The notes under the pieces: generated by a model
Told to the model about the DNA's origin: nothing
What the model saw: the letters and a program-made list of their open reading frames with translations, nothing else
The model's database searches: none
Shown: positions 2,666-45,437 of the stretch, piece after piece
How the letters are laid out: every line of letters starts with the position of its first letter
Numbering within the stretch: position 1 is the first letter of the stretch
DNA from: the human T2T-CHM13v2.0 reference genome, Homo sapiens
Reading direction: 5' to 3' (one strand)
Assembly: GCF_009914755.1 (NCBI RefSeq)
Contig: NC_060928.1
Length of the DNA stretch: 64,000 nucleotides
Made by a program: the position numbers and the translations under genes

Positions 2666-3114
2666 TCAATTTTAAAATATGTTATTGCTAAAAAATGCTA
2701 ACAATCATCTGAGCCTTCAGTGCATCATAATTCTTTTGCTGGTGGAGGGTGTTGCCTGGATGTTGATGGCTGATAACCAGTTAGGGTGGTGATAGCTGAA
2801 GGCTGGTGAACTGTAGCAATTTCTTAAAGTAAGATAATAATAAAATTTGCTTCATTGATTGACTCTTCCTTCCTGAAATATTTCTCTGTAACACATGATG
2901 CTATTCATTTACCCACACTAGAACTTTCAAAATTAGAGTCAGTCCTCTCAAATCCTGCAGCTGCTTTATCAACTATGTTTAGGTAATACTGTAAATTCTT
3001 TGCTGTCACTTCAACAATGTTCACAGCATCTTCACCAAGAGTAAATTTCATCTTAAGAAACCACTTTTTTTTTGCACATCTATAAGAAGCAACTCGTCAT
3101 CCGTTCAAGTTTGA

Positions 3115-9004: not shown

Positions 9005-10401
9005 TGAGAGGTGACAGCCTGCTGGCAGTCCTCAGAGCCCTCGCTTGCTCTCGGCGCCTCCTCTGCCTGCATTCCCACTTTGGCCGCACTTGAGGAGCCC
9101 TTCGGCTGGCCGCTGCACTGTGGGAGCCCCTTTCTGGGCTGGCCAAGGCCAGAGCCGGCTCCCTCAGCTTGCAGGGAGGTGTGGAGGGAGAGGCGCGAGC
9201 AGGAACCGGGGCTGCGCACAGCGCTTGCGGGCAAGCTGGAGTTTCAGATGGGCGTGGGCTTGGCGGGCCCCACACTCGGAGTGGCCTGGGGCCCTGCCGG
9301 CCCCGGGCAGTGAGGGGCTTAGCATCCGGGCCAGCGGCTACGGAGGGTGTACTGGGTCCCCCAGCAGTGCCGGCCCACCGGTGCTGAGCTCGATTTCTCG
9401 CCGGGCCTTAGCTGCCTTCCCGTGGGGCAAGCCTCCGGACTGTAACCTGCCATGCCTGAGCCTTCCCCTGCCTCCATGGGTTCCTGTGCAGCCGGAGCCT
9501 CCCCGACAAATGCCGTCCCCTGCTCCACGGCGCCTAGTCCCATCGACCGCCCAAGGGCTGAGGAGTGTGAGCGCATGGCGCAGGACTGGCAGGCAGCTAA
9601 CACCTGCAGCCCCAGAGCGGGATCCACTGGGTGAAGCCAGCTGGGCTCCTGAGTCTGGTGGGGATGTGGAGAGTCTTTATGTCTAGCTCAGGGATTGTAA
9701 ACACACCAGTCAGCACCCTGTGTCTAGCTCAGGGTTTGTGAGTGCACCAATCGACACTCTGTATCTAGCTGCTCTGGTGGGGCCTTGGAGAACCTTTATG
9801 TCTGGCTCAGGGATTGTAAATACACCAATCAGCACTCTGTATCTAGCTCAAGGTTTGTAAACGCACCAATCAGCACCCTGTCAAAACAGACCACTCGGCT
9901 CTACCAATCAGCAGGATGTGGGTGCGGCCAGATAAGAGAATAAAAGCAGGCTGCCCGAGCCAGCAGTAGCAACCCGCCCGGGTCGCCTTCTGTACTGTGG
10001 TACCTTTGTTCTTTCACTCTTTGCAATAAATGTTGCTATTGCTCACTCTGTTGCTACTGCTCACTCTTCGGGTCCACATTGATTTTATGAGCTGTAACAC
10101 TCACCGTGAAAATCTGCAGCTTCTCTTCTGAAGCTAGCGAGACCGCGAGCCCACGAAGAGGAACTAACAACTCCAGACGTTCTCCCTTAAAAGCTGTAAC
10201 ACTCACCGTGAAGGTCTGTTGCTTCACTCCTGAGCCAGCAAGACCACGAACCCACCAGAAGGAAGAAACTCCGAACACATCCGAACATCAGAAGGAACAA
10301 ACTCCAGACGCGCCACCTTAAGAGCTGTAACACTGGCCGCAAAGGTCCCCGGCTTTATTCTTAAAGTCATTGAGATCAAGAACCCACCAATTCCGGACAC
10401 A
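9005..10401 (+). mobile_element. solo LTR12C (ERV9/HERV9 LTR)
   Basis: Starts TGAGAGGTGACAGC, ends CCACCAATTCCGGACACA; 4-bp TSD ATAC at 9001-9004 and 10402-10405; GC/CpG-rich U3, CCAAT repeats, three GCTGTAACACT U5 repeats. Confidence 0.96.
9680..10030 (+). promoter_or_regulatory. LTR12 enhancer/promoter core (NF-Y CCAAT boxes, GATA, AATAAA box) and poly(A) signal
   Basis: CCAAT at 9747, 9825, 9866 and 9904; GATAAG at 9931; AATAAA at 9939 (promoter box) and 10025 (poly(A) signal). Confidence 0.75.
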
Positions 10402-18716: not shown

Positions 18717-21178
18717 CATTTTAATAGTGCATTATAATACAAAAGTATAAAATGAAAGCATATACCAGGCACTCTAACTTTATTAATCTGTGCTATCAGG
18801 TCTCAATTCTTTATTTTAAAATAATGACAATTCGGTTGACAATATAAGAAAAGCCTTTGAGAAAAAAAATAAGATAATTAAAATGTAAAAATAAGGTATG
18901 AAAGGTACATGTTACTATATGATTTCTGCCATTCCACCCATTAACTTTATTGTGAACTCAAACCTAAGACTGCATAGACATTGCACCTGCAGCAAGGTAG
19001 ACATGGATGTGGCATGATTATCCTGGAGGATTCTGTGAAACACAGCAGTGTCCACAGCCTGGGGAGGTTTGTTTCCATAAAAAGCAGGTCAGTAAGGTAT
19101 TTTTGAATTGACAAATAAATATAAATGGTAATGAGAAAGGCAATATTTTGTATGGAAAACATTCTGAATTTTTTCAATAAAGATGAAGTAAATTTGAGAT
19201 TTTCTGAAGCTATTAAGAAATTGTCACAAAAATAATTTAACCATCTAGTCTGCATTTAATTACATCCCCTGCACTGTACCAAACATAGAAATAGTCTTAG
19301 ATTAAACTCTTTAGGTAAGAATTATCCCCATTCCTGCAGATGAGGAAACTGGGACTCGGTGCATATGTTTAGCCTTTGAGTGGTTTAGTTTTGTTATCTG
19401 TAAAATTAGGCACACATATAAAAGAATACTTGAACCTCCACTATGCTACATTAAGTAAAACTATAGAGTAAAATTAAAAGGTATGGATAGTAAAAGGGTA
19501 AAAGGGATGGAGTTTATTCCCCTAAAATTCTAGATTAAAACCTAAAAAGTTATCAACAGTCAGAGAAACAGTCAGCAAAACATATGAATATTCACAGGGA
19601 AAGAGTTTAATTTGACAGTTACTACAAAAGATGCTCAGTTGTCTTTTCCTCAGAAACTGAGATTGAAATCAGAAAAGTTTAGCTTCTGAGAATATTCCTG
19701 AAGGAACTATAACATGGTGTGATAAATACAGCAATGGAATTATAATAGTAGTGCTGTGGTATCTTAGAGAGGATAGGATTTGTACTGTTGAAATGAGAAA
19801 AATGAAGACTTCAGTAAAGAATGAGTTGACAGCTGATCTATATATTGAAGAATAAATAAGAAGAAGAAAATCAAAGAATAAAATTAAGATTCATGTCTTT
19901 CAGGTTTTCACTGCTCACACCTTGGGGTCCTTTAGAATATGTAAAAGAAATTACTGAAGGGAATTCAGGAAGTTAAGAACATCCTAGTATGATTTAGTTT
20001 ATCTGACTGAAATTCTCTGAAAACAACAGGCTCTGTCATGATATTAATAGAGGGAGAAAAGATACCTTTAAAGAGATTGCTGGAGAGGTCAGAACAATTG
20101 TACTTTTCTGTCATCTGTTTCCTAAACAAATGGCTACAGGATATGATTCAAAATCAGTGACTAATTCAGTCTTTACTTGCATGCTTCCTCTCTATTTGCA
20201 TGCCAATGTTTTCTGCAAATGATAGTAAAACATTTTAGGTTTTCTTCTTTTTTGGTATCTGAATTCATAAAGCTAGCATTGCAAGAATTGATAGCTTGTG
20301 TCTCATGGTGCCAAAATCCTCCTGAAAAAGCAAACTTCACTTTCTTAACCATCTATATAAAATAATCACATTATGGGAATGGTATTTCAAAGCTTTCTTG
20401 TCAGGTAAATCATATTTTAAAAAAAAATTTCCACGTATTCTACTATGAAATAATAAAATTCACTGGCCTACATACCAGTTTGTATATAGTTAATATTTCT
20501 CTTGACACCTGTGAGCTCAGTTCAATTATATTAACTCTATGAATTGAAAATCAGAGTGACAAACTAATTTCTAAATTATGTGATAACTGGGTCCATAGAA
20601 AGAAAAATCTATGAATTTTACTGCCCAAGTGAATACAATTCTGTTTATTATCTTACATACCAACTGTCAGCAGCCTGTGATGTGGAACAGTTTAGATTAC
20701 TGCTGACATTTGGAAAAGTAAATGGATTTGAATGAGCTTGAACAAGTTAAGCAAAATGGCAACTTGATATTGTTGAGAATAAATTGTTTATTTGTTAATA
20801 AACTGTTACAAATACTATAGAAATTTTTGTAAGCTCTTGCTTCTTAGTTTACATATATCTCTGGAGAATAAGCATAACTAGGACGACTTTGACATAAAAA
20901 TACTGAATAAAACATATTAACATTCCTAACAGGAGTTAAATATAGGGAAATATTCATTGGTGTGTATGAACTCTGCCATTGGGTAAGACTGAGTTAAATT
21001 GATATTTCTTATTGGATGCTCTGCATTCTATATCTTGATGTATTATTTAAAAAATAAAAATTTAATTTTCAACAGGGAAAATGTTAAGAAACATGTTTGA
21101 GAGAGATATTAATTAAGGTTGGGAATATAATCATTTTTGCTAAATGGATAGTAACCTAAATATAACTATTTAAATTCC

Positions 21179-23425
21179 TACATTAGTCTGTTCTCAGGTT
21201 GCTATAAAGAAATACCCGAGACTGGGTAATTTATAAAGAAAAGAGGTTTAATTGACTCACAGTTCTGCATGGGTGGGAAGGCCTCAGGAAACTTACAATC
21301 GTGGAAGGCACCTCTTCATGGTGCAGCAACAAAGAGAATGAGTGTAAGCAGGGGAAATGCCAGATGCTTACAAAACCATCAGATCTCCTGAGACTCACTC
21401 ATTATCATGAGAACAGCATGGGGGAAGCAGCCCCATGATCCAATTACCTACACCTGGTCCTGCCCCTATATGACACATAGGAATTATTGCAATTCAAGAT
21501 GAGATTTGGGTGGGGACACAAACCATATCATTTTGCATCTGGCCCTCCCAAAAATCATGCCCTCACATTTCAAAACACAATCATGCCTTTTTAACAGTGC
21601 CTCGAAGTCTTAACCCATTTTAGCATTAACCCCAAAATCCAAGTCCAAAGTCACATCTGAGAAAAGGTAAGTCCTTTCTGCCTATGAGCCTGTAAAATAG
21701 CAAGTTAGTTACTTCCTAGATACAATGGAAGTACAGGTATTAGGTCAATATACCAACTCCAAATGGGAGAAATAAGCCAAAACAAAGGGGTTACAGGCCC
21801 CATGCAAATCCAGTAGGTCAGTCATTAAATCTTAAAGTTCCAAAATGATCTACTTTGACTCTATGTCTCACATCCAAGTCATGCTGATGCAAGAGCGGGG
21901 ATCCTACAGGTATTGGCAGCTCTGTCCCTATGGATTTGCAGGATACAGCCCCCTCCCAGCTGCTTTCACGGGCTGACATTGAGTGTCTCTGTCTTTCCTG
22001 GGTGCACAGTGCAAGCTGTCAGTGGATCTACCATTCTGGGGTCTGGAGGATGCTGGCCCTCATCTCACAGCTCCACTAGGCAGTGCCTCTGTGTGGGGAT
22101 TCTGAGTGGGGGCTTCAATCTCACATTTTCCTTCTGCACTGCCCCAGCAGAAGTTCTCCAGGAGGGTTCCACCTCTGTAGCAGACTTCTGCCTGGACTTC
22201 CAGACATTTCCATACATTTTTTGAAACCTAGATGGAGGTTCCCAAACCTTACTTCTTGTCTTCTGTGCACCCACAGGCCCAACACCATGTGTAAGCCACT
22301 GAGGCTTGGGGTTTGCACCCTCTGAAGCAATGGCCTGAGCTGTATTTTGGCTCATTTTAGCCAGAATTGGAGCTGAAGCAGCTGTGATGCAGGGCACCAC
22401 GTCCTGAGGCTACATAGAGTAGGGGGCCCATGAAACCATTTTTCCCTCCTAGGTCTCCAGATCTGTGATGAGAGTGGGTGCTGTGAAGTTCTCTGACATG
22501 CCCTGGAGGGATTTTCTCCATTGTCTTGGTGATTAACATTTGGCTCTTCATTACTTATGTAAATTTCTACAGCAGGCTTAAATTTCTCTCCATAAAATGA
22601 GTTTTTCTTTTTTATTACGTGGTCAGGCTGCAAATTTTCCAAACTTTTACACTCTGCTTTCTCTTCAATGCTTTGTTGCTTAGAAATTTCTTCCACCAGA
22701 TACCTTAAATCATCTCTCTCAAGTTAAAAGTTCCACAGATCTCTAGGGCAGGGGCAAAATGCCACCAGTCTCTTTGTTAAAGCATAGTAAGAATCACCTT
22801 TGCTCCAGTTCCCAATAAGTTCTTCATCTCCCTCTGAGACCACTTCAGCCTGAACTTCATTGTTCACATCACTATTAGCATTTTGTTCAAAACCATTCAA
22901 CAAGTTTTTAGGAAGTTCCAAACTCCCAACTATTTCTGTTTTCTTCTGAGTCCTCCAAACTGTTTCAATCTCTGCCTGTTACCCAGTTCTAACGTTGATT
23001 CCACATTTTCAGGATTCTTTATAGCAGCACCCCACTACCTCAGCACCAATTTACTGTGTTAGTCTGTTCTCATTCTGCTATAAAGAAATATGCAAAACTG
23101 GGAAATTTGTAAAGAAAAGAGAAAATTGACTCAAAATTAAATTGACTCAAAGTTCTGCAAGACGGGGAAGGCCTCAGGAAACTTACAATCATGGTGGGAG
23201 GCACTCCTTCACAGGGTGGCAGGAGAAAGAATGAGTGCCAATTAAAGGGGTAAGCCTCTCATAAAACCTTCAAATCTCATGAGAGCTCACTCATTATTAT
23301 GAGAACAGCATGAGAGAAAACACCGATATGATTTAATTATCTCTACCTCATCCCACCCTTAACACATGGTGATTATTACAATTCAAGGAGAGATTTGTGT
23401 GGGAACACAGAGCCAAACCATATCA
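21179..23425 (-). mobile_element. full-length THE1D-like MaLR provirus (LTR 21179-21530, internal 21531-23054, LTR 23055-23425)
   Basis: Two LTRs ending AAACCATATCA; 5-bp TSD ATTCC at 21174-21178 and 23426-23430; internal ORF remnant MELPKNLLNGFEQNA...GNWSKGD...LVAFCPCPRDLWNF. Confidence 0.93.
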
Positions 23426-29159: not shown

Positions 29160-29900
29160 ATAGCCAGTTCAGGGTATGTATTAGTGCATTTTCACACTGC
29201 TGTAAAAAATATCCAAGACTGGGTTATTTATAAAGAAAAGAGGCTTAATGGACTCACAGTTCTACATGGCTGGGGAGGCCCCAGGAAACTTACAATCATG
29301 GCAGAAGGGGAAGCAGGTACGTCTTACATGGCTGCAGGAGAGAGAGAGTGTGTGTGAAGAAAGAGCAGTCTAACACTTATAAAATCATCAGATCTCATTA
29401 GAATTCACTCACTATCATCAGAACAGCATGGGGGAAACTGCCCCCGTGATCTAATCACCTCCCACTCGTTCCCACCCTCGACACATGGAAATTATGGGGA
29501 TTACAATTTAAGATAAGATTTGGGTGGGGACACAGTGTCAAACCATATCAGGCTGCTATAACAAATTATCATACACTGGGTGGCTTAAACAAGAAACATT
29601 TATTTCTCTGCGTTCTGGAGGCTGGGAAATTCAAGATCAAAATGCCAGTAGCTACAGTGTCTGGTGAAGACTCTCTTCCTGGTTTGCAAATGGACATCTT
29701 CTCATTGTATTCTCATATAGAGGAGAGCAGGGAGAGCAGAACAAGCTTCTGCCTGTCTCTTTTTTTAATGAGGAAATAATCTCATCATAAGAGATCCACT
29801 TTTGTGACCCAAATACCTCTGAAGGGCCCATCTCCAAACACCATCACATTGATCATTATGGTTTCAACAGATAAATTTTGAAAGAAAATAGACTACAGAC
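29160..29900 (-). mobile_element. MLT1A0-like LTR split by an MSTA/THE1 LTR
   Basis: CAGTTCAGG | GGCTGCTATAACAAATTATCATACACTGGGTGGCTTAAAC. Confidence 0.7.
29177..29550 (-). mobile_element. MSTA/THE1D solo LTR
   Basis: TGTATTAGT ... AAACCATATCA termini. Confidence 0.9.
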
Positions 29901-38228: not shown

Positions 38229-38938
<710 letters not shown>

Positions 38939-41324
38939 AGCGAGTTGTTTTTTTTTTTTTTTCTATGAATTTTATGTAAATTGAATAACCTTATAATCAC
39001 CTAATGATTTTGGCAGTGGTTGTATTCATACACTTCAAACCCATGAGGTTTTTAACCAGTATTGATCAAGTTGTGGATCCACTGAAAAAAACCCTTTTAA
39101 TTGTAGCCAGTATTCAGTTTTTTCTTTTTAAAATTTTTTTCACAATACATTCTCCTATTTTTTTCATGCATGCGGATTTCAATAGTAATCTAAGCATATG
39201 AGGAGAGTTTATTTCAGACCTTTACATCTAACTTTACAGTCTAGCTGTTAAATTTTTGGTTAATATGCTTTGCCTCGTGAACTGGAATACAAACTTGAAC
39301 TAATAAAACTTTTTATTTTCTCTGTTGATTTTGAGCCAAGATCACCACTTTTAGTTGGCCACACTCCCATCTCCCTATCACAGACTCTAGTCTAGGAGAG
39401 CTGTAATTTTGGCTGACCATGCCAAGGAGGTACATGAGAGGAAGGCAAACTCTCAATATTTTCCTCAAAGCTGTAGCCTTTTTTTTAAAAAAAAAAAAAC
39501 AACAGCAAATGCTTCTCAATTTATCTGACTTTGATCCAATCCAAGGACACTAAACTCGTTGCTTTCTGGCAGTTATATGCAATTTTATAATTGTTTTATT
39601 CAGAGGGATATTGCTTTACTTATTCATGCTACCATTTTTAGAATTCCAGTCTGTTGGAGGAGGTGTTTCCTTAGGTGGTGGTTACAGATTGTGGAAAAGT
39701 CTTTATAATATTAGTCCTTTGAAAAGTTGCCTTCTCAATTTTTCTCTGGTCCAGGAATGTTTGACCATTTGCACTTATTTCATGAATTTTGCTGTTCAAT
39801 GCAAGAATAAAGGGATGTGTTTAAAATATATGAAACAATGGGGCATGTTTTTATGTGTCTTTTTCTGTTTAAAAGTGTTTATAAGACTATTTGAAGGTTT
39901 GCTATGTCTATTACCACCTACAGTTTTCAAGTCTTGTTCACTTAAAAAAAAAATCTTCTAATAAGCATTTTGCCACTTTTCTTGGCTTGCTGTTTTATAG
40001 TATTTTCACGTGCTTTAGGGGAATTAATATAAATAAACAAAATGAAGCTAACAAATGAAGCTACAATTGCATCCTGAGTAAAATAAATTACATTTTTTTC
40101 ATCATCCTGAATTACAGAAATGATAAGAATTTTACAGATATTTTTCTTTTTTGCTTTTTATATTAAACTCCTGTCACCTGAGATAAACTGAATATATCTG
40201 ATTGTACTTTAATCAATTTTAATTTCTAAGAAAAAGTTTAGATTCAGGAAATGGAAAGAGAAATAGAGGAAGAAACTAGAAGAGAGAAAAATGGACAGAA
40301 CCTCATGTATGATAAGGAGAGTCATGTAGTTAATGCTATGGCAGTCAAAAGCCTTTATGAACACATATGGATGAAAAGGTAAGAGAAGACATAAAAAGAA
40401 GGCTGAAGGTTTTAAAGGAATATGGAGCATGTTTTGCAGGTTATTGAAGACTTCTGGTGACAACAACCTTAAAGTTGCTCATACACTTAATCTACATTGA
40501 AAGTGTTTATTATATCCTGAAAACCAAAAAACATGACGTGCGATATGTGCGCATCGTACAACCTTTCCCTCCTGCCTTTGAATTGACTTATTTTTTCATA
40601 TATATAGATGAGATAATATATGTCTTTATTGTGGGAACCTCTTTATTATAAAAAATTTCACAAACAAAGCAGAGATTAGTCCAACAAAACTTAATAAATC
40701 CATTACACAACTTTAAGTGGTTTAACTCAGGGCCAGTCTCATTTTATCTGCATTCCCATCTACTTCTTCTCCCTCTTCCTGGATTAGTTTGAGACAAAGC
40801 CAAGGGAGAAGAAACTTTATGTTTTATTCATTATTATTTAACTATGTATGTTTTAATATGACTTTTATATAATTTAATTTTAATTATTAAGTCTAAAAAT
40901 TTTACATTATCTTAGTATTATATGATATCCAGCAGTTGTTGTATTTATGTGGACACTTTACCAAGTCCTTTAAAAATAATTCACAAAGCCATCCCTCCAT
41001 GACTTAGAGGAGTCAAAAAGATAATGTAGAGGCTTTGTGATAACATATTTAATATATTGTTATTGATGGTAAATTCAATTGCTTATAGAAGTTTCTATTA
41101 TCACCGGTTCAATTTACATTCTAGATTTATATGTTCCCCATTTAAATGAAAAATCAAACATCACAAAATTTTAAGGGATTATTTTTCTGTATCATCCAAG
41201 CTCCACCAAAATCTATAAATGTAGACCTTACTTGGCATGTTTACTAAATTATTTTATATTTACATTAAGCAATGATTTTTATGCTTATCATGCACTATGA
41301 GTTGCATGCATTCTTTGGCTTCCT

Positions 41325-41631
41325 TGTGTTTTGCCAAACACTCCATTTGACCAGTGAGCCAAAGTGCACTGTAACTGATGAACTGCAAATGTATTCAATA
41401 TATTTCTGGTAAAATCTGAGTCAGCAAGAAGAGCCTACTGGAGTGCAAAAATTAGCATGACATAATGCCGAGTACATTCTCTCACAAGTTAAAGATATGG
41501 ATAACAAAAGTTAATCCATGATTTCCTAGAATTAATAAATTAGATAAACCTATTTTAGCTTTAATAAGTTTGCAACACAAAGATCATTTACTTGAAGTAA
41601 CACATAATTAAGTTCTTGGAAATTATAATTT
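41325..41631 (+). repeat. inverted repeat, left arm (307 bp, apparently unique sequence)
   Basis: Checked block by block as the exact reverse complement of 42610-42916. Confidence 0.98.
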
Positions 41632-42609
41632 ACTGCAGTCTTTCTGCATGGAACTCTGCTGTAATGGGGAAAGTTTATATATATGTGAGTACATATTCAT
41701 GTCAGTGTGTGTGTATCTATGTGTGTGTATATAGCCCCTATCAATTAAATAAACAAGATGCAGCAAGATGTCAGCCACTTTTACATAATTTTAGCAAAGC
41801 TCTAAAGGAGGGAACACAAGTTATCTTTTCTTTAAATAATAATTTCTGTGAATAATCAAGGCTTACTAATTGCTTTTTCAAATTCTCCAGCTCTGATTTT
41901 TACTTCACATGTTCAATATATATTTTTCTTTTGTACTTCTAAAATATTCTCCTGCTGGCTACTTACTAATTTCTTTGATAGTCTTTGATTTCATCAACTT
42001 ATTTTATTCTATAAAAGTAACATTCCAAAGTCACTTTGTGCAATTTGTAAAAAAAGAGATTTAAGGTTATGATTAAAAGTGGAAAATTCAAATTCTTTAA
42101 AATAATTTTGAATAAAATCAGCTAGGTTTTTAAAACAACATTCATAAAAGTCTTGATCCTATCATTTGAATTTTTAAAAAGCCATGTTTATTGAAATGAC
42201 TTTGCTTTAAATCCAGTAAAAGAAGATTCAGCTGGCATTTATGATAAAAATTACTGTATTTGGAAATGTATTTCTTGGCTTTTACAATAATCAGAAGTCA
42301 CTTTTTAAATGTCATATTACACACATACAGATACACACACACATACACACGTACTTGTTAGCTCTGGAGGACTAAAAATGTGTTTACATGAGATTCTTAA
42401 AGAAAAAAAAAACTAGTTCATGTTTTAAATTAAATCCTTTTAGGCAATTAGATTTTTAGCCAGTAGCAGTAAAGAGCAGGTTTGTAATTCTAAAATTAAT
42501 GTTAAAAAAAATGATATATTACTTGAGGAACTACATTATGTTTTTGGCTCAGAGAACATACTTTAAAAACCTGCCAACATCAAGAATATGTGTCCTGGAA
42601 AAATACAGG

Positions 42610-42916
42610 AAATTATAATTTCCAAGAACTTAATTATGTGTTACTTCAAGTAAATGATCTTTGTGTTGCAAACTTATTAAAGCTAAAATAGGTTTATCTA
42701 ATTTATTAATTCTAGGAAATCATGGATTAACTTTTGTTATCCATATCTTTAACTTGTGAGAGAATGTACTCGGCATTATGTCATGCTAATTTTTGCACTC
42801 CAGTAGGCTCTTCTTGCTGACTCAGATTTTACCAGAAATATATTGAATACATTTGCAGTTCATCAGTTACAGTGCACTTTGGCTCACTGGTCAAATGGAG
42901 TGTTTGGCAAAACACA
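42610..42916 (-). repeat. inverted repeat, right arm (derived copy flanked by a 12-bp direct repeat)
   Basis: Exact reverse complement of 41325-41631; GGAAAAATACAG at 42597-42608 and 42920-42931. Confidence 0.98.
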
Positions 42917-45437
42917 GCAGGAAAAATACAGATATTTCATTATCTCTTATGTTTTCTTTTCTTTTCATTTTATCGCTATGGTTTAGATTCTGAGCATGAT
43001 TGATTTCAAAAAAAAGCTTGAGAAATGTCAAATGTATCATATCATTATGAAAATAATGAGAGCACATCTAAAATTCTCATACTAATTTTTAAAAGTTATG
43101 CATAGTATATACATATAATGGGCATATGGAATACTATTGCACATAATGAAATCTAAAACTGCAACAAATCCAACTTTCTAAAATTCAGTTCCTTTTTAAA
43201 AATATAATACAAAATAAAAAAGACATCTCCAAGTCATCTTATAATTATGGCGGCCTTGTGATTTGTCATCCAAACTGAACTCTTAAGAGTGAAAGAGGGC
43301 ATTATTAATCATTACTCTGAAAAAAGAAGTTTAACCTGGGCCTGTTCCAGTGCCCATAATTATGACTTTTTCCACAAGCTTCTTGTGATTTTAGGTACAG
43401 TTATTAATTCTTTCATTCAGGAGCTTAGTGCTGTAAGTGCATATAACACTGCTAGAGTGGCTCAATGCATTGATGGGCCAAACTGAGTTTAAGAGAATAA
43501 TTTATATTCACAACCGGGCACTATGAGAACAAGTATTTATATGGGCTTGCTACTTATTGCATCTTGATGTCTGAATTATTTCCTTCAAGTATGAAACTTT
43601 TTTATTTCTCTAGATGCCTGAGAATTCCAACAGGTGGTCTAATTAGGTGAATAGAATGAGGATAACTGGACATATGAGTTTCCTCCATTCATAAGGTAGG
43701 AAATGGCATCTGTCACTTAAGACTTAAGGGTTCCCACTTCCCACTCATGCAATATTATTCATTGACTTTAAAACATGAAGCTGATTCTCATCTAGCTTTG
43801 TTTGTTCACTTCTTTAGAATGGAGACTCTTCCAGAAGCTTCACTACTATCACTGAGAGTCAAGAAATTCTAATTCCAAGAACTTGTGATTAATATTCATG
43901 AGAGAAATTTGTAAGTTAAACAACTTCATATTACCTATCTCTGCTGCCTTCTTATGGCCATGTTTGGTTAGAAAGGCGCCGGAAGCTAAATAATTCGTGT
44001 GTGCAAAGACACTCTTTGTCTTGTGTGTTTTGTATTCAAGACACATAAACACTACATATAGTATTTGGGGTATATAGTTAAATTGTCTATGGGTTTTTGA
44101 GAGACAGAAAATGTTATTGGAAGGCTATATTGAGTCAGAAACATCAAAGGTAGTCAATAATTTAGAAATGCATTTATTGATTAGATACTCGATGATAATG
44201 CCCAAAGTTTATTGTCATTGTGACATTTTTCCTGCCACAAATCAAAGGGTTCAGGTGTTTCCAGAGGGAGGTCAGTAGAATAACAGTGCCCTGTTAGCAC
44301 AGTTTTGATAGTACCTAAATACCCCACTTGACAACTGAAGTCCAACCTGAAACAATAAAAGCTTATCCTAATAAGTTCTCTAGTGCTGCTAAAGTGGTTG
44401 ATTTGCCAGTGACTATTAACCTCACTGTTATCCCAGGGTTGAAGGCTACTGAACTCTTGGCAACCTATGTGCCAGGAGGCTGCTGCTCTGTATTTTATCC
44501 TCATCTTGAGGACCGACCTAAGGCTCCAGCATCAAATTCAAGCATTTGCTTATCTTCAAAGTCTCATTGTACAAACAAAAGTTATGGATGGCACTTTGCA
44601 AAGCAGCACTTCTATATTTTTATTTTTGGAAGGCTACTCAGATATAAAAACCCTCTGTGTTTTTGAAAAGTTTCTATTGGCTCTTTCCATGGAATATATT
44701 GCTGCAAAATTATCCTATAAAAGCAAGGTACAATTCAGTACTTAGAATTATATCAAACATCAAGATCCAATCTCCAATAAGAAAAATGTCTTAAATTTTT
44801 ATTTTACAGTATTAAATAATGACTCATTATATAAATTTCTATAATTATTTGTTTGCAAATAGAAAAGAATTGTTGAATGCTAGTTTAAAAAATTTACAAT
44901 AGCCCTCTGGGAGAATATTTAAATGGAGAATATTTTATTGTGAAATACTTTATAAGAGGATTTTTACCCATTTTCCCATGTAGTTGATTACTTTATTACA
45001 ACACTTATTCTATTTAATTTTTTAAATAATTTAACTATGCATTTCAAGAATACATTAAGTATTAGACATGAGAAACCTTTTTTCATGCATACTTCAGTAT
45101 GAGTGTATGGAAGTGTATGTGTATTTGAGAAATACACTGATTGGTTGAAGAACTGATTGGTTGAAGGAGAAAGAGGGCAACCTTATGTTGTAGTGCTAAA
45201 ATAAGCATTTATCACTCTGAGATGGGCTTTTGCACTCTTTTGAGTTCAGCTAAAATAAAATTCTGTGTTACCAAGAAGGAAAGGTGTAGTGAATAAATTT
45301 CTTTTCAACAGGAAGTGGGATAAGAGCAAGAACACAGAGCTTGACGTTGGACAATCATGAATTCAATCCTAGCTCAGCAACTACATGTCCTTTCATGCTA
45401 GACAACTTATTTACACTCTAAGAATTCATTCACCTCC

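What the first reader, a model, noticed from the sequence alone, without database searches (positions are those of the whole stretch)
42597..42931. Right arm is a templated insertion flanked by a 12-bp duplication with microhomology at both junctions
Seen: GGAAAAATACAG occurs directly before (42597-42608) and after (42920-42931) the right arm. At junction 1 the recipient ...CAG|GAAATTAT matches the donor reverse complement CAG|TAAATTAT. At junction 2 the donor continues AACACA-AGGAAG while the locus reads AACACA-GC-AGGAAAAATACAG, giving GGAA microhomology back to 42597. There is no poly(A) tail. Inference: a double template switch (FoSTeS/MMBIR or Pol-theta type) copied DNA from ~1 kb upstream on the opposite strand, then re-primed 12 bp behind where it left. 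This predicts an ancestral allele lacking 42609-42931 (323 bp) and identifies the right arm as the derived copy.
Basis: partly seen in the sequence, partly recalled or inferred. Interest (0 to 1): 0.8.

Follow-up and report, generated by a model that had tools for sequence, protein, structure and literature searches.

The report
Young inverted copy-paste insertion scar
A 311-base stretch was copied backwards from about 1 kb away and pasted into unique, gene-free human DNA, duplicating 12 bases at the landing site; this is a clean but ordinary example of a common, already catalogued type of human structural change.

Summary
Window 42610-42916 is a perfect (307/307) reverse-complement copy of 41325-41631. 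It is flanked flush by an exact 12-bp direct repeat at 42597-42608 and 42920-42931.

- **Right arm is the derived copy:** a flush 12-mer repeat is expected about 1.6e-4 times by chance. The left arm has no such repeat, and there is no decayed homology beyond the arms. T2T-CHM13 holds only these two copies.
- **Junctions:** homology to the donor continues at both ends, as CAG after one mismatch and AGGAA after a 2-nt extra. Both together occurred in 0.15% of random trials (a post hoc test).
- **Not retrotransposition:** there is no poly(A), polyadenylation signal or L1-type nick site.
- **Mechanism:** most likely one replication-associated double template switch that returned 12 bp behind its departure point. 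A staggered break that captured a local fragment gives the same product and cannot be excluded.
- **Not tested:** the predicted empty allele. No ape or other human haplotypes were reachable.

The kind is known. Long reads from 1,019 humans gave 277 inverted duplications with a median length of 284 bp, mostly with 1-15 bp microhomology and attributed to replication (PMC12350158). Interest is low.

The parts
41320..41635 (+). Donor tract (left arm). The perfect block is 41325-41631. Junction homology adds 41632-41635 (A, then CTG) and 41320-41324 (TTCCT).
   Evidence: perfect 307 bp; BLAST aligns 30111320-30111635 to window 42606-42923.
41636..42596 (.). Intervening unique sequence between donor and landing site, inferred to be ancestral. 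It holds an inverted (TG)n / (CA)n microsatellite pair at about 41700-41733 and 42318-42350.
   Evidence: (I3, I4). No paralogue elsewhere except microsatellite hits.
42597..42608 (+). Copy 1 of the 12-bp direct repeat (the target-site sequence). Its last 3 bases, CAG, are also homologous to the donor (junction 1 microhomology).
   Evidence: (D14).
42609..42919 (+). Inserted tract, 311 bp: one mismatched G (42609), the 307-bp perfect inverted copy (42610-42916), then GC (an extra relative to the donor) and A (42919, which matches the donor's continuation).
42920..42931 (+). Copy 2 of the 12-bp direct repeat. Its first 4 bases, GGAA, with the preceding A, match the donor's continuation (junction 2 microhomology).
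   Evidence: (D14).
42608..42623 (.). Perfect 16-bp palindrome created at junction 1 from one recipient base, the mismatched G and 14 donor-derived bases. The left arm's counterpart at 41618-41633 is 15 of 16.

Best explanation
The right arm is the scar of one mutational event. It has no indicated function.

Inferred course of events:
- DNA synthesis running left to right on the + strand had just copied the 12-mer ending at 42608 when the growing 3' end left its template.
- It paired through CAG with the complementary CTG at 41633-41635, about 1 kb behind. The template there was either the opposite strand or the nascent strand folded back on itself.
- It copied about 316 nt in reverse-complement sense, down to about 41320.
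- It then returned through GGAA to the original template at 42597, 12 bp behind the point of departure. The 12-mer was therefore copied twice.
- Two small errors lie right at the switches: one wrong base at 42609 and a 2-nt extra at 42917-42918.

Result: a new, perfect 307-bp inverted repeat with a 978-bp spacer in unique, gene-free DNA.

Shown: the structure, its statistical significance, the two-copy status and the absence of retrotransposition marks.
Inferred: that the right arm is the derived copy (about 0.85-0.9), that the event was replicative (about 0.6, the confidence given here), and that it is young. There are zero differences in 319 paired sites. With a recalled rate of 0.5e-9 per site per year, the probability of seeing no difference falls to one half at 2.2 My and to 5% at 9.4 My, if there was no gene conversion.
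For: - The inverted copy is perfect, 307 of 307.
- The 12-bp direct repeat is exact and flush with the insert. About 1.6e-4 is expected by chance for +-3 bp registers, and 20 of 3000 in a loose window test.
- The left arm's best boundary repeat is 6 bp and not flush, and the whole structure's is 4 bp.
- There is no residual inverted similarity outside the arms: outer flanks z 0.25-0.70, inner flanks z about 2. I attribute the inner value to the TG/CA microsatellite pair.
- There are only two copies in 3.1 Gb.
- It is the only pair of 80 bp or more at 95% or better in 264 kb, and the only long pair above 90% identity in the window.
- Donor homology resumes beyond both irregular junction bases. 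Chance gives J1 8.7%, J2 1.6% and both 0.15% of 20,000 trials.
- Both irregularities sit within about 5 nt of the tract ends, as expected of switch-associated errors. By my own arithmetic the chance for two random changes is (12/318)^2, about 0.0014.
- Donor and target lie 1 kb apart in a 3.1-Gb genome, which favours a local DNA-level process (inference).
- Published parallels, read as passages: events with point 4 before point 1 give a direct repeat and look like one large insertion (PMC7954356). Human inverted duplications number 277, with a median of 284 bp, mostly 1-15 bp microhomology and a 'replicative formation origin' (PMC12350158).
Against: - No empty allele or outgroup was seen, so polarity rests on the 12-bp repeat and on the lack of one at the left arm.
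- The microhomologies are separated from the perfect block by a mismatch (J1) and a 2-nt extra (J2). J1's 3 nt alone arises by chance in 8.7% of trials.
- I defined the junction test after seeing the data.
- A 12-bp duplication is also what fill-in of a staggered break gives.
- PMC12807874 (section 13) argues that many 0.1-1 kb insertions once ascribed to MMBIR are single-stranded fragments from near a break, joined by microhomology-mediated end joining.
- Folding the inferred pre-insertion strand gave no special closeness of donor and 3' end: 22.7% of upstream positions were at least as close.
- The age bound fails if the arms have been homogenised by gene conversion.
Confidence: 0.6

Rival explanations
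1. Break repair without a replication fork. A double-strand break with 12-nt 5' overhangs was filled in on both ends, which gives the 12-bp duplication. A roughly 0.3-kb fragment from about 1 kb away was then joined between the ends by microhomology-mediated end joining. The fragment could be a fill-in or resection product complementary to the resected 3' overhang.
For: - The size (311 bp) and the distance of the source (under 10 kb from the break) fit the short insertions of breakage-replication/fusion: median 184 bp, 113 of 126 within 10 kb, with junctions showing more than 2 bp of microhomology or added bases (PMC12807874 section 13).
- The extra GC and the mismatched G could be filler bases.
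- A 12-bp duplication is a natural product of staggered ends (inference).
Against: - That process was described in chains of insertions within heavily rearranged chromosomes. This is a single, isolated insertion.
- Simple ligation does not explain why the recipient flank matches the donor's continuation at both ends, which chance gives in 0.15% of trials. The fragment would have to have carried those bases.
- No agent for a 12-nt stagger is evident. The site does not match the L1 endonuclease site as I recall it.
Confidence: 0.25
2. An old inverted repeat whose arms are kept identical by gene conversion. The 12-bp repeat would be either chance or the relic of an ancient insertion.
For: Arms of 307 bp about 1 kb apart could in principle convert each other (recalled knowledge, not tested). 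Zero differences is compatible with ongoing conversion.
Against: - Identity drops from 100% to background within 1-5 nt at both ends, with no decayed homology outside.
- The two 12-mers, which lie outside any arm-to-arm conversion tract, are still identical.
- A flush 12-mer by chance is expected about 1.6e-4 times.
Confidence: 0.05
3. L1-type retro-insertion: target-primed reverse transcription of a local antisense transcript, with the 12 bp as a target-site duplication.
For: A 12-bp duplication lies within the 10-20 bp usual for mobile-element insertions (PMC12350158).
Against: - There is no poly(A) tail, and no AATAAA or ATTAAA in the last 60 nt in either orientation.
- The nick sites implied by the duplication do not match the L1 endonuclease site as I recall it.
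- A retrocopy landing 1 kb from its source in a 3.1-Gb genome would be an extreme coincidence (inference).
- No gene or transcript is annotated in the window (annotation given with the task).
Confidence: 0.03
4. The left arm is the derived copy, or the whole 1.6-kb inverted-repeat unit arrived as a mobile element with terminal inverted repeats, or the structure is an assembly artefact.
For: Template switches that return ahead of the departure point leave no duplication, so the lack of a repeat at the left arm does not by itself prove that it is the original (PMC7954356).
Against: - The flush 12-bp repeat at the right arm would then be chance, about 1.6e-4.
- The whole unit has no flanking duplication (best 4 bp) and no other copy in the genome.
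- The 1.6-kb structure is much shorter than the long reads used for this kind of assembly (recalled, not tested).
Confidence: 0.04

Closest known systems
Polymorphic 'inverted duplications' called as insertions in long-read human genomes (SVAN class; Schloissnig et al. 2025, PMC12350158; passages read)
   Same: The inserted sequence is an inverted copy of sequence within a 2-kb window around the breakpoint. The size is typical: the class median is 284 bp and this one is 311 bp. The breakpoints have short microhomology (1-15 bp), and the authors attribute the class to replication.
   Different: Whether this locus is polymorphic or fixed is unknown. I did not find it in the supplement I could search, and that supplement has no table of this class.
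Four-point template-switch mutations with switch point 4 before point 1 (Walker, Goldman and Loytynoja 2021, PMC7954356; passages read)
   Same: The geometry is identical: a reverse-complement copy of nearby sequence that appears as one insertion flanked by a direct repeat made by re-copying the stretch between points 4 and 1. The point order here is 3-2-4-1.
   Different: The scale differs. Their gold-standard 2->3 fragments have a median of 12 nt and a maximum of 128 nt. Here the tract is about 311-316 nt and the donor lies about 1 kb away. The related human scan compared alleles with only 150 bp of flank (10.1101/2021.11.26.470150).
MMBIR templated insertions (MMB-TI; PMC8421209; passages read)
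   Same: An insertion in proximity and in inverted orientation to its template, flanked by microhomologies. [quoted passage not shown]
   Different: The irregular bases between microhomology and copy seen here are not part of their signature.
Small inverted triplications and DUP-TRP/INV-DUP (PMC13334657; passages read)
   Same: A DUP / inverted / DUP layout made by two switches. Flanking duplications start at 7 bp, and inverted fragments run from 20 bp to several kb.
   Different: In those events the inverted piece is a copy of the duplicated segment itself, giving a triplication, with a median spacer of 30 bp. Here the inverted piece comes from about 1 kb away and does not overlap the 12-bp duplication.
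Short insertions of breakage-replication/fusion (Zhang et al. 2026, PMC12807874; abstract and section 13 read)
   Same: A 0.1-1 kb piece that originates within 10 kb of a break, joined with microhomology or added bases.
   Different: Those were described as chains within complex rearrangements after chromosome fragmentation. This is a lone insertion in otherwise undisturbed sequence.

Membership tests
Template-switch inverted insertion (four-point model, point 4 before point 1) | The inserted tract is the reverse complement of nearby sequence | tested here: met
   307 of 307 identical to the reverse complement of 41325-41631, 978 bp away.
Template-switch inverted insertion (four-point model, point 4 before point 1) | A direct repeat flanks the insert (the stretch between points 4 and 1, copied twice) | tested here: met
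   Exact 12-mer at 42597-42608 and 42920-42931, flush with the insert; about 1.6e-4 expected by chance.
Template-switch inverted insertion (four-point model, point 4 before point 1) | An ancestral allele without the insert, with direction resolved by an outgroup | not testable with these tools
   No primate or other human haplotypes are held. There is no bridging paralogue in the genome, and scans for stray copies found 0.
Template-switch inverted insertion (four-point model, point 4 before point 1) | Scale within the published short-range sets. This is a limit of those scans, not part of the mechanism's definition. | tested here: not met
   The tract is 311-316 nt and the donor about 1 kb away, against a maximum of 128 nt and 150-bp flanks. 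It is within the 2-kb window and size range of the SVAN class.
SVAN inverted duplication (PMC12350158) | The inserted sequence realigns in inverted orientation within a 2-kb window around the breakpoint | tested here: met
   The copy aligns to 41320-41635, which is 962-1,289 bp left of the insertion point at 42608/42609. Whether their window means +-1 kb or +-2 kb I could not tell from the passage.
SVAN inverted duplication (PMC12350158) | Polymorphic in human populations (called as an insertion relative to a reference) | not testable with these tools
   Only one haplotype is held. The locus is absent from the one supplement file I could search, which does not list this class.
MMBIR templated insertion | Microhomology at both junctions | tested here: inconclusive
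   CAG (3 nt) and GGAA/AGGAA (4-5 nt) are present but separated from the perfect copy by 1 mismatch and a 2-nt extra. Chance gives 8.7%, 1.6% and 0.15% jointly (post hoc test).
L1-mediated retro-insertion (TPRT) | Poly(A) tail at the 3' end of the insert | tested here: not met
   No A-run at either end, and no polyadenylation hexamer in the last 60 nt of either orientation.
L1-mediated retro-insertion (TPRT) | Target-site duplication of about 7-20 bp at an endonuclease site of the TTTT/AA type (motif recalled) | tested here: not met
   The length fits (12 bp). But the implied nick sites, read from the target context printed (TGTGTCCT / 12-mer / ATATTTCAT), do not match the recalled motif in either orientation.
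DNA transposon with terminal inverted repeats | Target-site duplication around the whole element, and more than one copy in the genome | tested here: not met
   The best direct repeat across the outer boundaries is 4 bp. There are only these two arm copies in 3.1 Gb.

The most novel reading that the evidence does not exclude
The jump of about 1 kb was not random. The pre-existing inverted (TG)n/(CA)n microsatellite pair in the spacer (about 41705-41729 with 42318-42342) formed a stem in single-stranded DNA. That stem drew the stalled 3' end towards the donor, so microsatellite stems would guide kilobase-range template switches and decide where new long inverted repeats are born. The new perfect 307-bp arms would in turn be a substrate for flipping the 978-bp spacer in the population.
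Probability: 0.08. Interest if true: 0.45.

Novelty: new member of a known kind. Interest (0 to 1): 0.18.

Why it matters
It matters little beyond serving as an example. The locus shows, at base resolution and in unique DNA free of mobile elements, how one copying error creates a long perfect inverted repeat, with both junctions, the duplicated target and the switch-associated errors still readable. No gene is annotated in the window, and the RefSeq enhancer is about 20 kb away.

Two modest points follow. First, the donor lies outside the 100-150 bp search radius of dedicated template-switch scanners, so such tools would miss this event, whereas a 2-kb realignment window would catch it. Second, 307 bp of perfect inverted identity could support inversion of the spacer or hairpin formation: 304 of 307 arm pairs form in the predicted fold. 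Population assemblies could check this.

Tried and rejected
1. Empty site inside the genome. I searched T2T-CHM13 with the left flank (42150-42608) and the right flank (42920-43400) at E up to 10. The only hits were the AC microsatellite and a short old repeat at about 43258-43350, and nothing bridged the insertion point.
2. Stray human contigs in the public collections carrying the unique left flank: 0 in genome contigs and 0 in viral contigs.
4. RNA families: 0 Rfam matches at E up to 1 in 40500-43800.
5. Fold of the inferred pre-insertion strand 41300-42608. The TG/CA stem is in the minimum-energy structure and shortens the path from the donor start to the 3' end from 973 nt to 55 steps. 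But 22.7% of upstream positions are at least as close, so this gives no support.
6. A wider census. I obtained 200 kb next to the window. The census therefore covers only 264 kb and says nothing about genome-wide frequency.
7. Locus-level literature.
   - Number prefixes 3007-3012 in the supplements of PMC9435742 gave no chr4 entry. 11 of 22 files were searched (files 2-12); file 1 and files 13-22 were not.
   - CHM13-style coordinates and chr4-300/301 in the table file of PMC12350158 gave only two unrelated variants, at 30,031,609 and 30,060,306. That file is stored cut.
   - I do not know this locus's GRCh38 coordinates, so a listing under them could have been missed.
8. Rejected readings: L1 retro-insertion, transposon with terminal inverted repeats, and old converted repeat. 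The reasons are given under Rival explanations.
9. The single mismatch at 42609 as a quasi-palindrome correction. It completes a 16-bp palindrome, but any substitution had a 1-in-3 chance of doing so. Left open.
Full report
**What is there.** Window 42610-42916 is a perfect reverse complement of 41325-41631, 307 of 307 bases. The two arms are 978 bp apart. The '318 nt, 99%' reported by the repeat finder over-extends into one junction. The right arm is bracketed by an exact direct repeat, GGAAAAATACAG, at 42597-42608 and 42920-42931. The neighbouring bases differ on both sides, so the repeat is exactly 12 bp.

Between the first 12-mer and the perfect block lies one base, G at 42609, where the donor's reverse complement has T. 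Between the perfect block and the second 12-mer lie GCA at 42917-42919. Read against the donor, homology resumes beyond both irregularities. CAG at 42606-42608 matches the donor on the far side of the mismatch. AGGAA at 42919-42923 matches the donor's continuation once a 2-nt extra (GC) is allowed. BLAST accordingly aligns 42606-42923 (318 nt) to window 41320-41635 (316 nt) at 99%.

**Is it more than chance?** Exact 12-mer direct matches at offsets of 100-2000 occur in 395 of 121,643,089 position-offset pairs in this window, or 217 if low-complexity words are dropped. A repeat flush with both ends of the arm within +-3 bp is therefore expected about 1.6e-4 times. In a deliberately loose test, 20 of 3000 random pairs of 36- and 39-bp windows 322 bp apart shared 12 bp or more.

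The junction homologies are weaker evidence. Against random 15-mers of the window, the J1 pattern arose in 8.7% of 20,000 trials, the J2 pattern in 1.6% and both in 0.15%. I defined that test after seeing the data. The pair itself is exceptional locally. In the 64-kb window all other long repeats look like Alu-type dispersed repeats, at 60-90% identity. In 264 kb of contiguous sequence (the window plus L003-L022) it is the only pair of 80 bp or more at 95% or better, direct or inverted.

**Which arm is the copy?**
- The right arm has the flush 12-bp repeat. The left arm's best boundary repeat is 6 bp, not flush, which is the background mode. The structure as a whole has only 4 bp.
- No decayed homology lies beyond the arms. 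Outer flanks give z 0.25-0.70 against shuffles. Inner flanks give z about 2, which I attribute to an inverted TG/CA microsatellite pair.
- The arm exists only as these two copies in the 3.1-Gb assembly. The flanks of the landing site have no paralogue that could serve as an internal 'empty site'.

Taken together, the right arm is the derived copy with a probability I put at 0.85-0.9. This is an inference. The direct test, an allele or outgroup without the insert, could not be run. No primate or second human haplotype is held, and scans of the public collections for stray contigs with the unique left flank found none.

**Age.** There are no differences in 307 + 12 paired sites. With a recalled substitution rate of 0.4-0.6e-9 per site per year, the probability of seeing none falls to one half at 1.8-2.7 My and to 5% at 7.8-11.7 My. 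With a flat prior this puts about 87% of the weight below a human-chimpanzee split of 6.5 My. That figure is my own arithmetic, using a recalled split date. Gene conversion between the arms would void the bound.

The two irregularities lie within about 5 nt of the tract ends. By my arithmetic, two later random changes would do that with a chance of about (12/318)^2 = 0.0014. I therefore read them as made during the event.

**Mechanism.** The geometry is the four-point template-switch type in which the return point (4) lies before the departure point (1). Walker and colleagues report 'many events' of this kind. [quoted passage not shown] Here the order on the ancestral sequence is 3 (about 41320), 2 (about 41635), 4 (42597), 1 (42608).

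A growing + strand moving rightwards could have used either its own earlier product (fold-back) or the other strand behind the fork. A leftward fork would need to invade unreplicated duplex. A tract of 311 bp suggests a processive polymerase rather than the short patches I recall for Pol theta (recalled, not tested). An elevated variant density around structural-variant breakpoints has been reported as support for error-prone replication; I saw that paper only in the search listing (PMC4937565).

I put a replicative double switch (FoSTeS/MMBIR in the broad sense) at about 0.6.

**Rivals.**
- A staggered break with 12-nt overhangs, filled in, that captured a local fragment gives the same product. 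Zhang and colleagues argue that many 0.1-1 kb insertions (median 184 bp, 113 of 126 from within 10 kb of a break) are single-stranded pieces complementary to a resected 3' overhang, joined with microhomology or added bases (PMC12807874, abstract and section 13). Against this, the event here is isolated, and simple ligation does not explain homology to the donor's continuation at both ends. I give it about 0.25.
- Retro-insertion by L1 machinery is disfavoured. There is no poly(A), no polyadenylation hexamer and no match to the recalled endonuclease site in either orientation. The source also lies only 1 kb away.
- A mobile element with terminal inverted repeats is excluded by the lack of an outer duplication and of other copies.
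- An old converted repeat is disfavoured by the sharp edges and the intact 12-mers.

**A mechanistic idea that did not hold up.** The spacer contains an inverted (TG)n/(CA)n pair. In the predicted fold of the inferred pre-insertion strand (41300-42608) this pair forms a 24-bp stem and shortens the path from the donor start to the 3' end from 973 nt to 55 steps. But 22.7% of upstream positions are at least as close. I keep it only as the boldest reading not excluded.

**Comparison with what is known.** The kind is well described.
- Long reads from 1,019 humans led SVAN to reclassify 311 insertions as inverted duplications. In the detailed set, inverted duplications were the commonest non-mobile-element inversion class, with 277 events and a median of 284 bp. 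Most have 1-15 bp of microhomology, 'suggesting a replicative formation origin' (PMC12350158, passages).
- SVAN looks for the template within a 2-kb window around the breakpoint. This event would fit that window, with a typical size.
- Dedicated template-switch scanners look much closer: 150-bp flanks (10.1101/2021.11.26.470150) and 100 bp (PMC8421209). They report much shorter tracts: a median of 12 and a maximum of 128 nt in apes, and in humans a longest of 318 bp overall, per-individual maxima of 97-180 bp in unmasked sequence and a mean of 11.56 bp.
- Small inverted triplications share the DUP/inverted/DUP layout but triplicate the duplicated segment itself (PMC13334657).

I did not find this locus in the supplementary files I could search. 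Those files are partial, and I do not know the GRCh38 coordinates, so I make no claim that the locus is undescribed.

**Verdict.** It is untested on the ancestral allele and unresolved between replicative and break-repair routes. This is a new member of a known, common kind, in a gene desert with no indicated function. Interest 0.18.

Noticed in passing
window 41700-41733 and 42318-42350: A (TG)n-rich and a (CA)n-rich microsatellite form an inverted pair inside the spacer, 87% complementary over 30 nt. They pair in the predicted single-strand fold.
   Followed up: partly
window 42608-42623 (and 41618-41633): Junction 1 creates a perfect 16-bp palindrome from one recipient base, the mismatched G and 14 donor bases. 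The donor's own version is 15 of 16. The mismatch could be a quasi-palindrome correction, but any substitution had a 1-in-3 chance of completing the palindrome.
   Followed up: partly
window 21207-21307 and 29204-29304: A 101-nt direct repeat pair at 88% identity, with a weaker third copy at 23097-23197. One copy lies inside the RefSeq enhancer 21123-21624. The family is unknown (D15).
   Followed up: no
window 9654-9762 and 9773-9881: Two adjacent 109-nt copies at 84% identity, spaced 119 bp apart, inside a stretch that NCBI masks as repeat (D16).
   Followed up: no
window about 43258-43350: A short stretch right of the insertion has 75-82% matches on four other contigs or places (C1, C2, C4, C23), as expected of an old dispersed repeat.
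   Followed up: no
window 38297-38986: Two Alu-like copies lie head to tail with 307-bp spacing, within the longest masked stretch of the window (D1 and D4).
   Followed up: no
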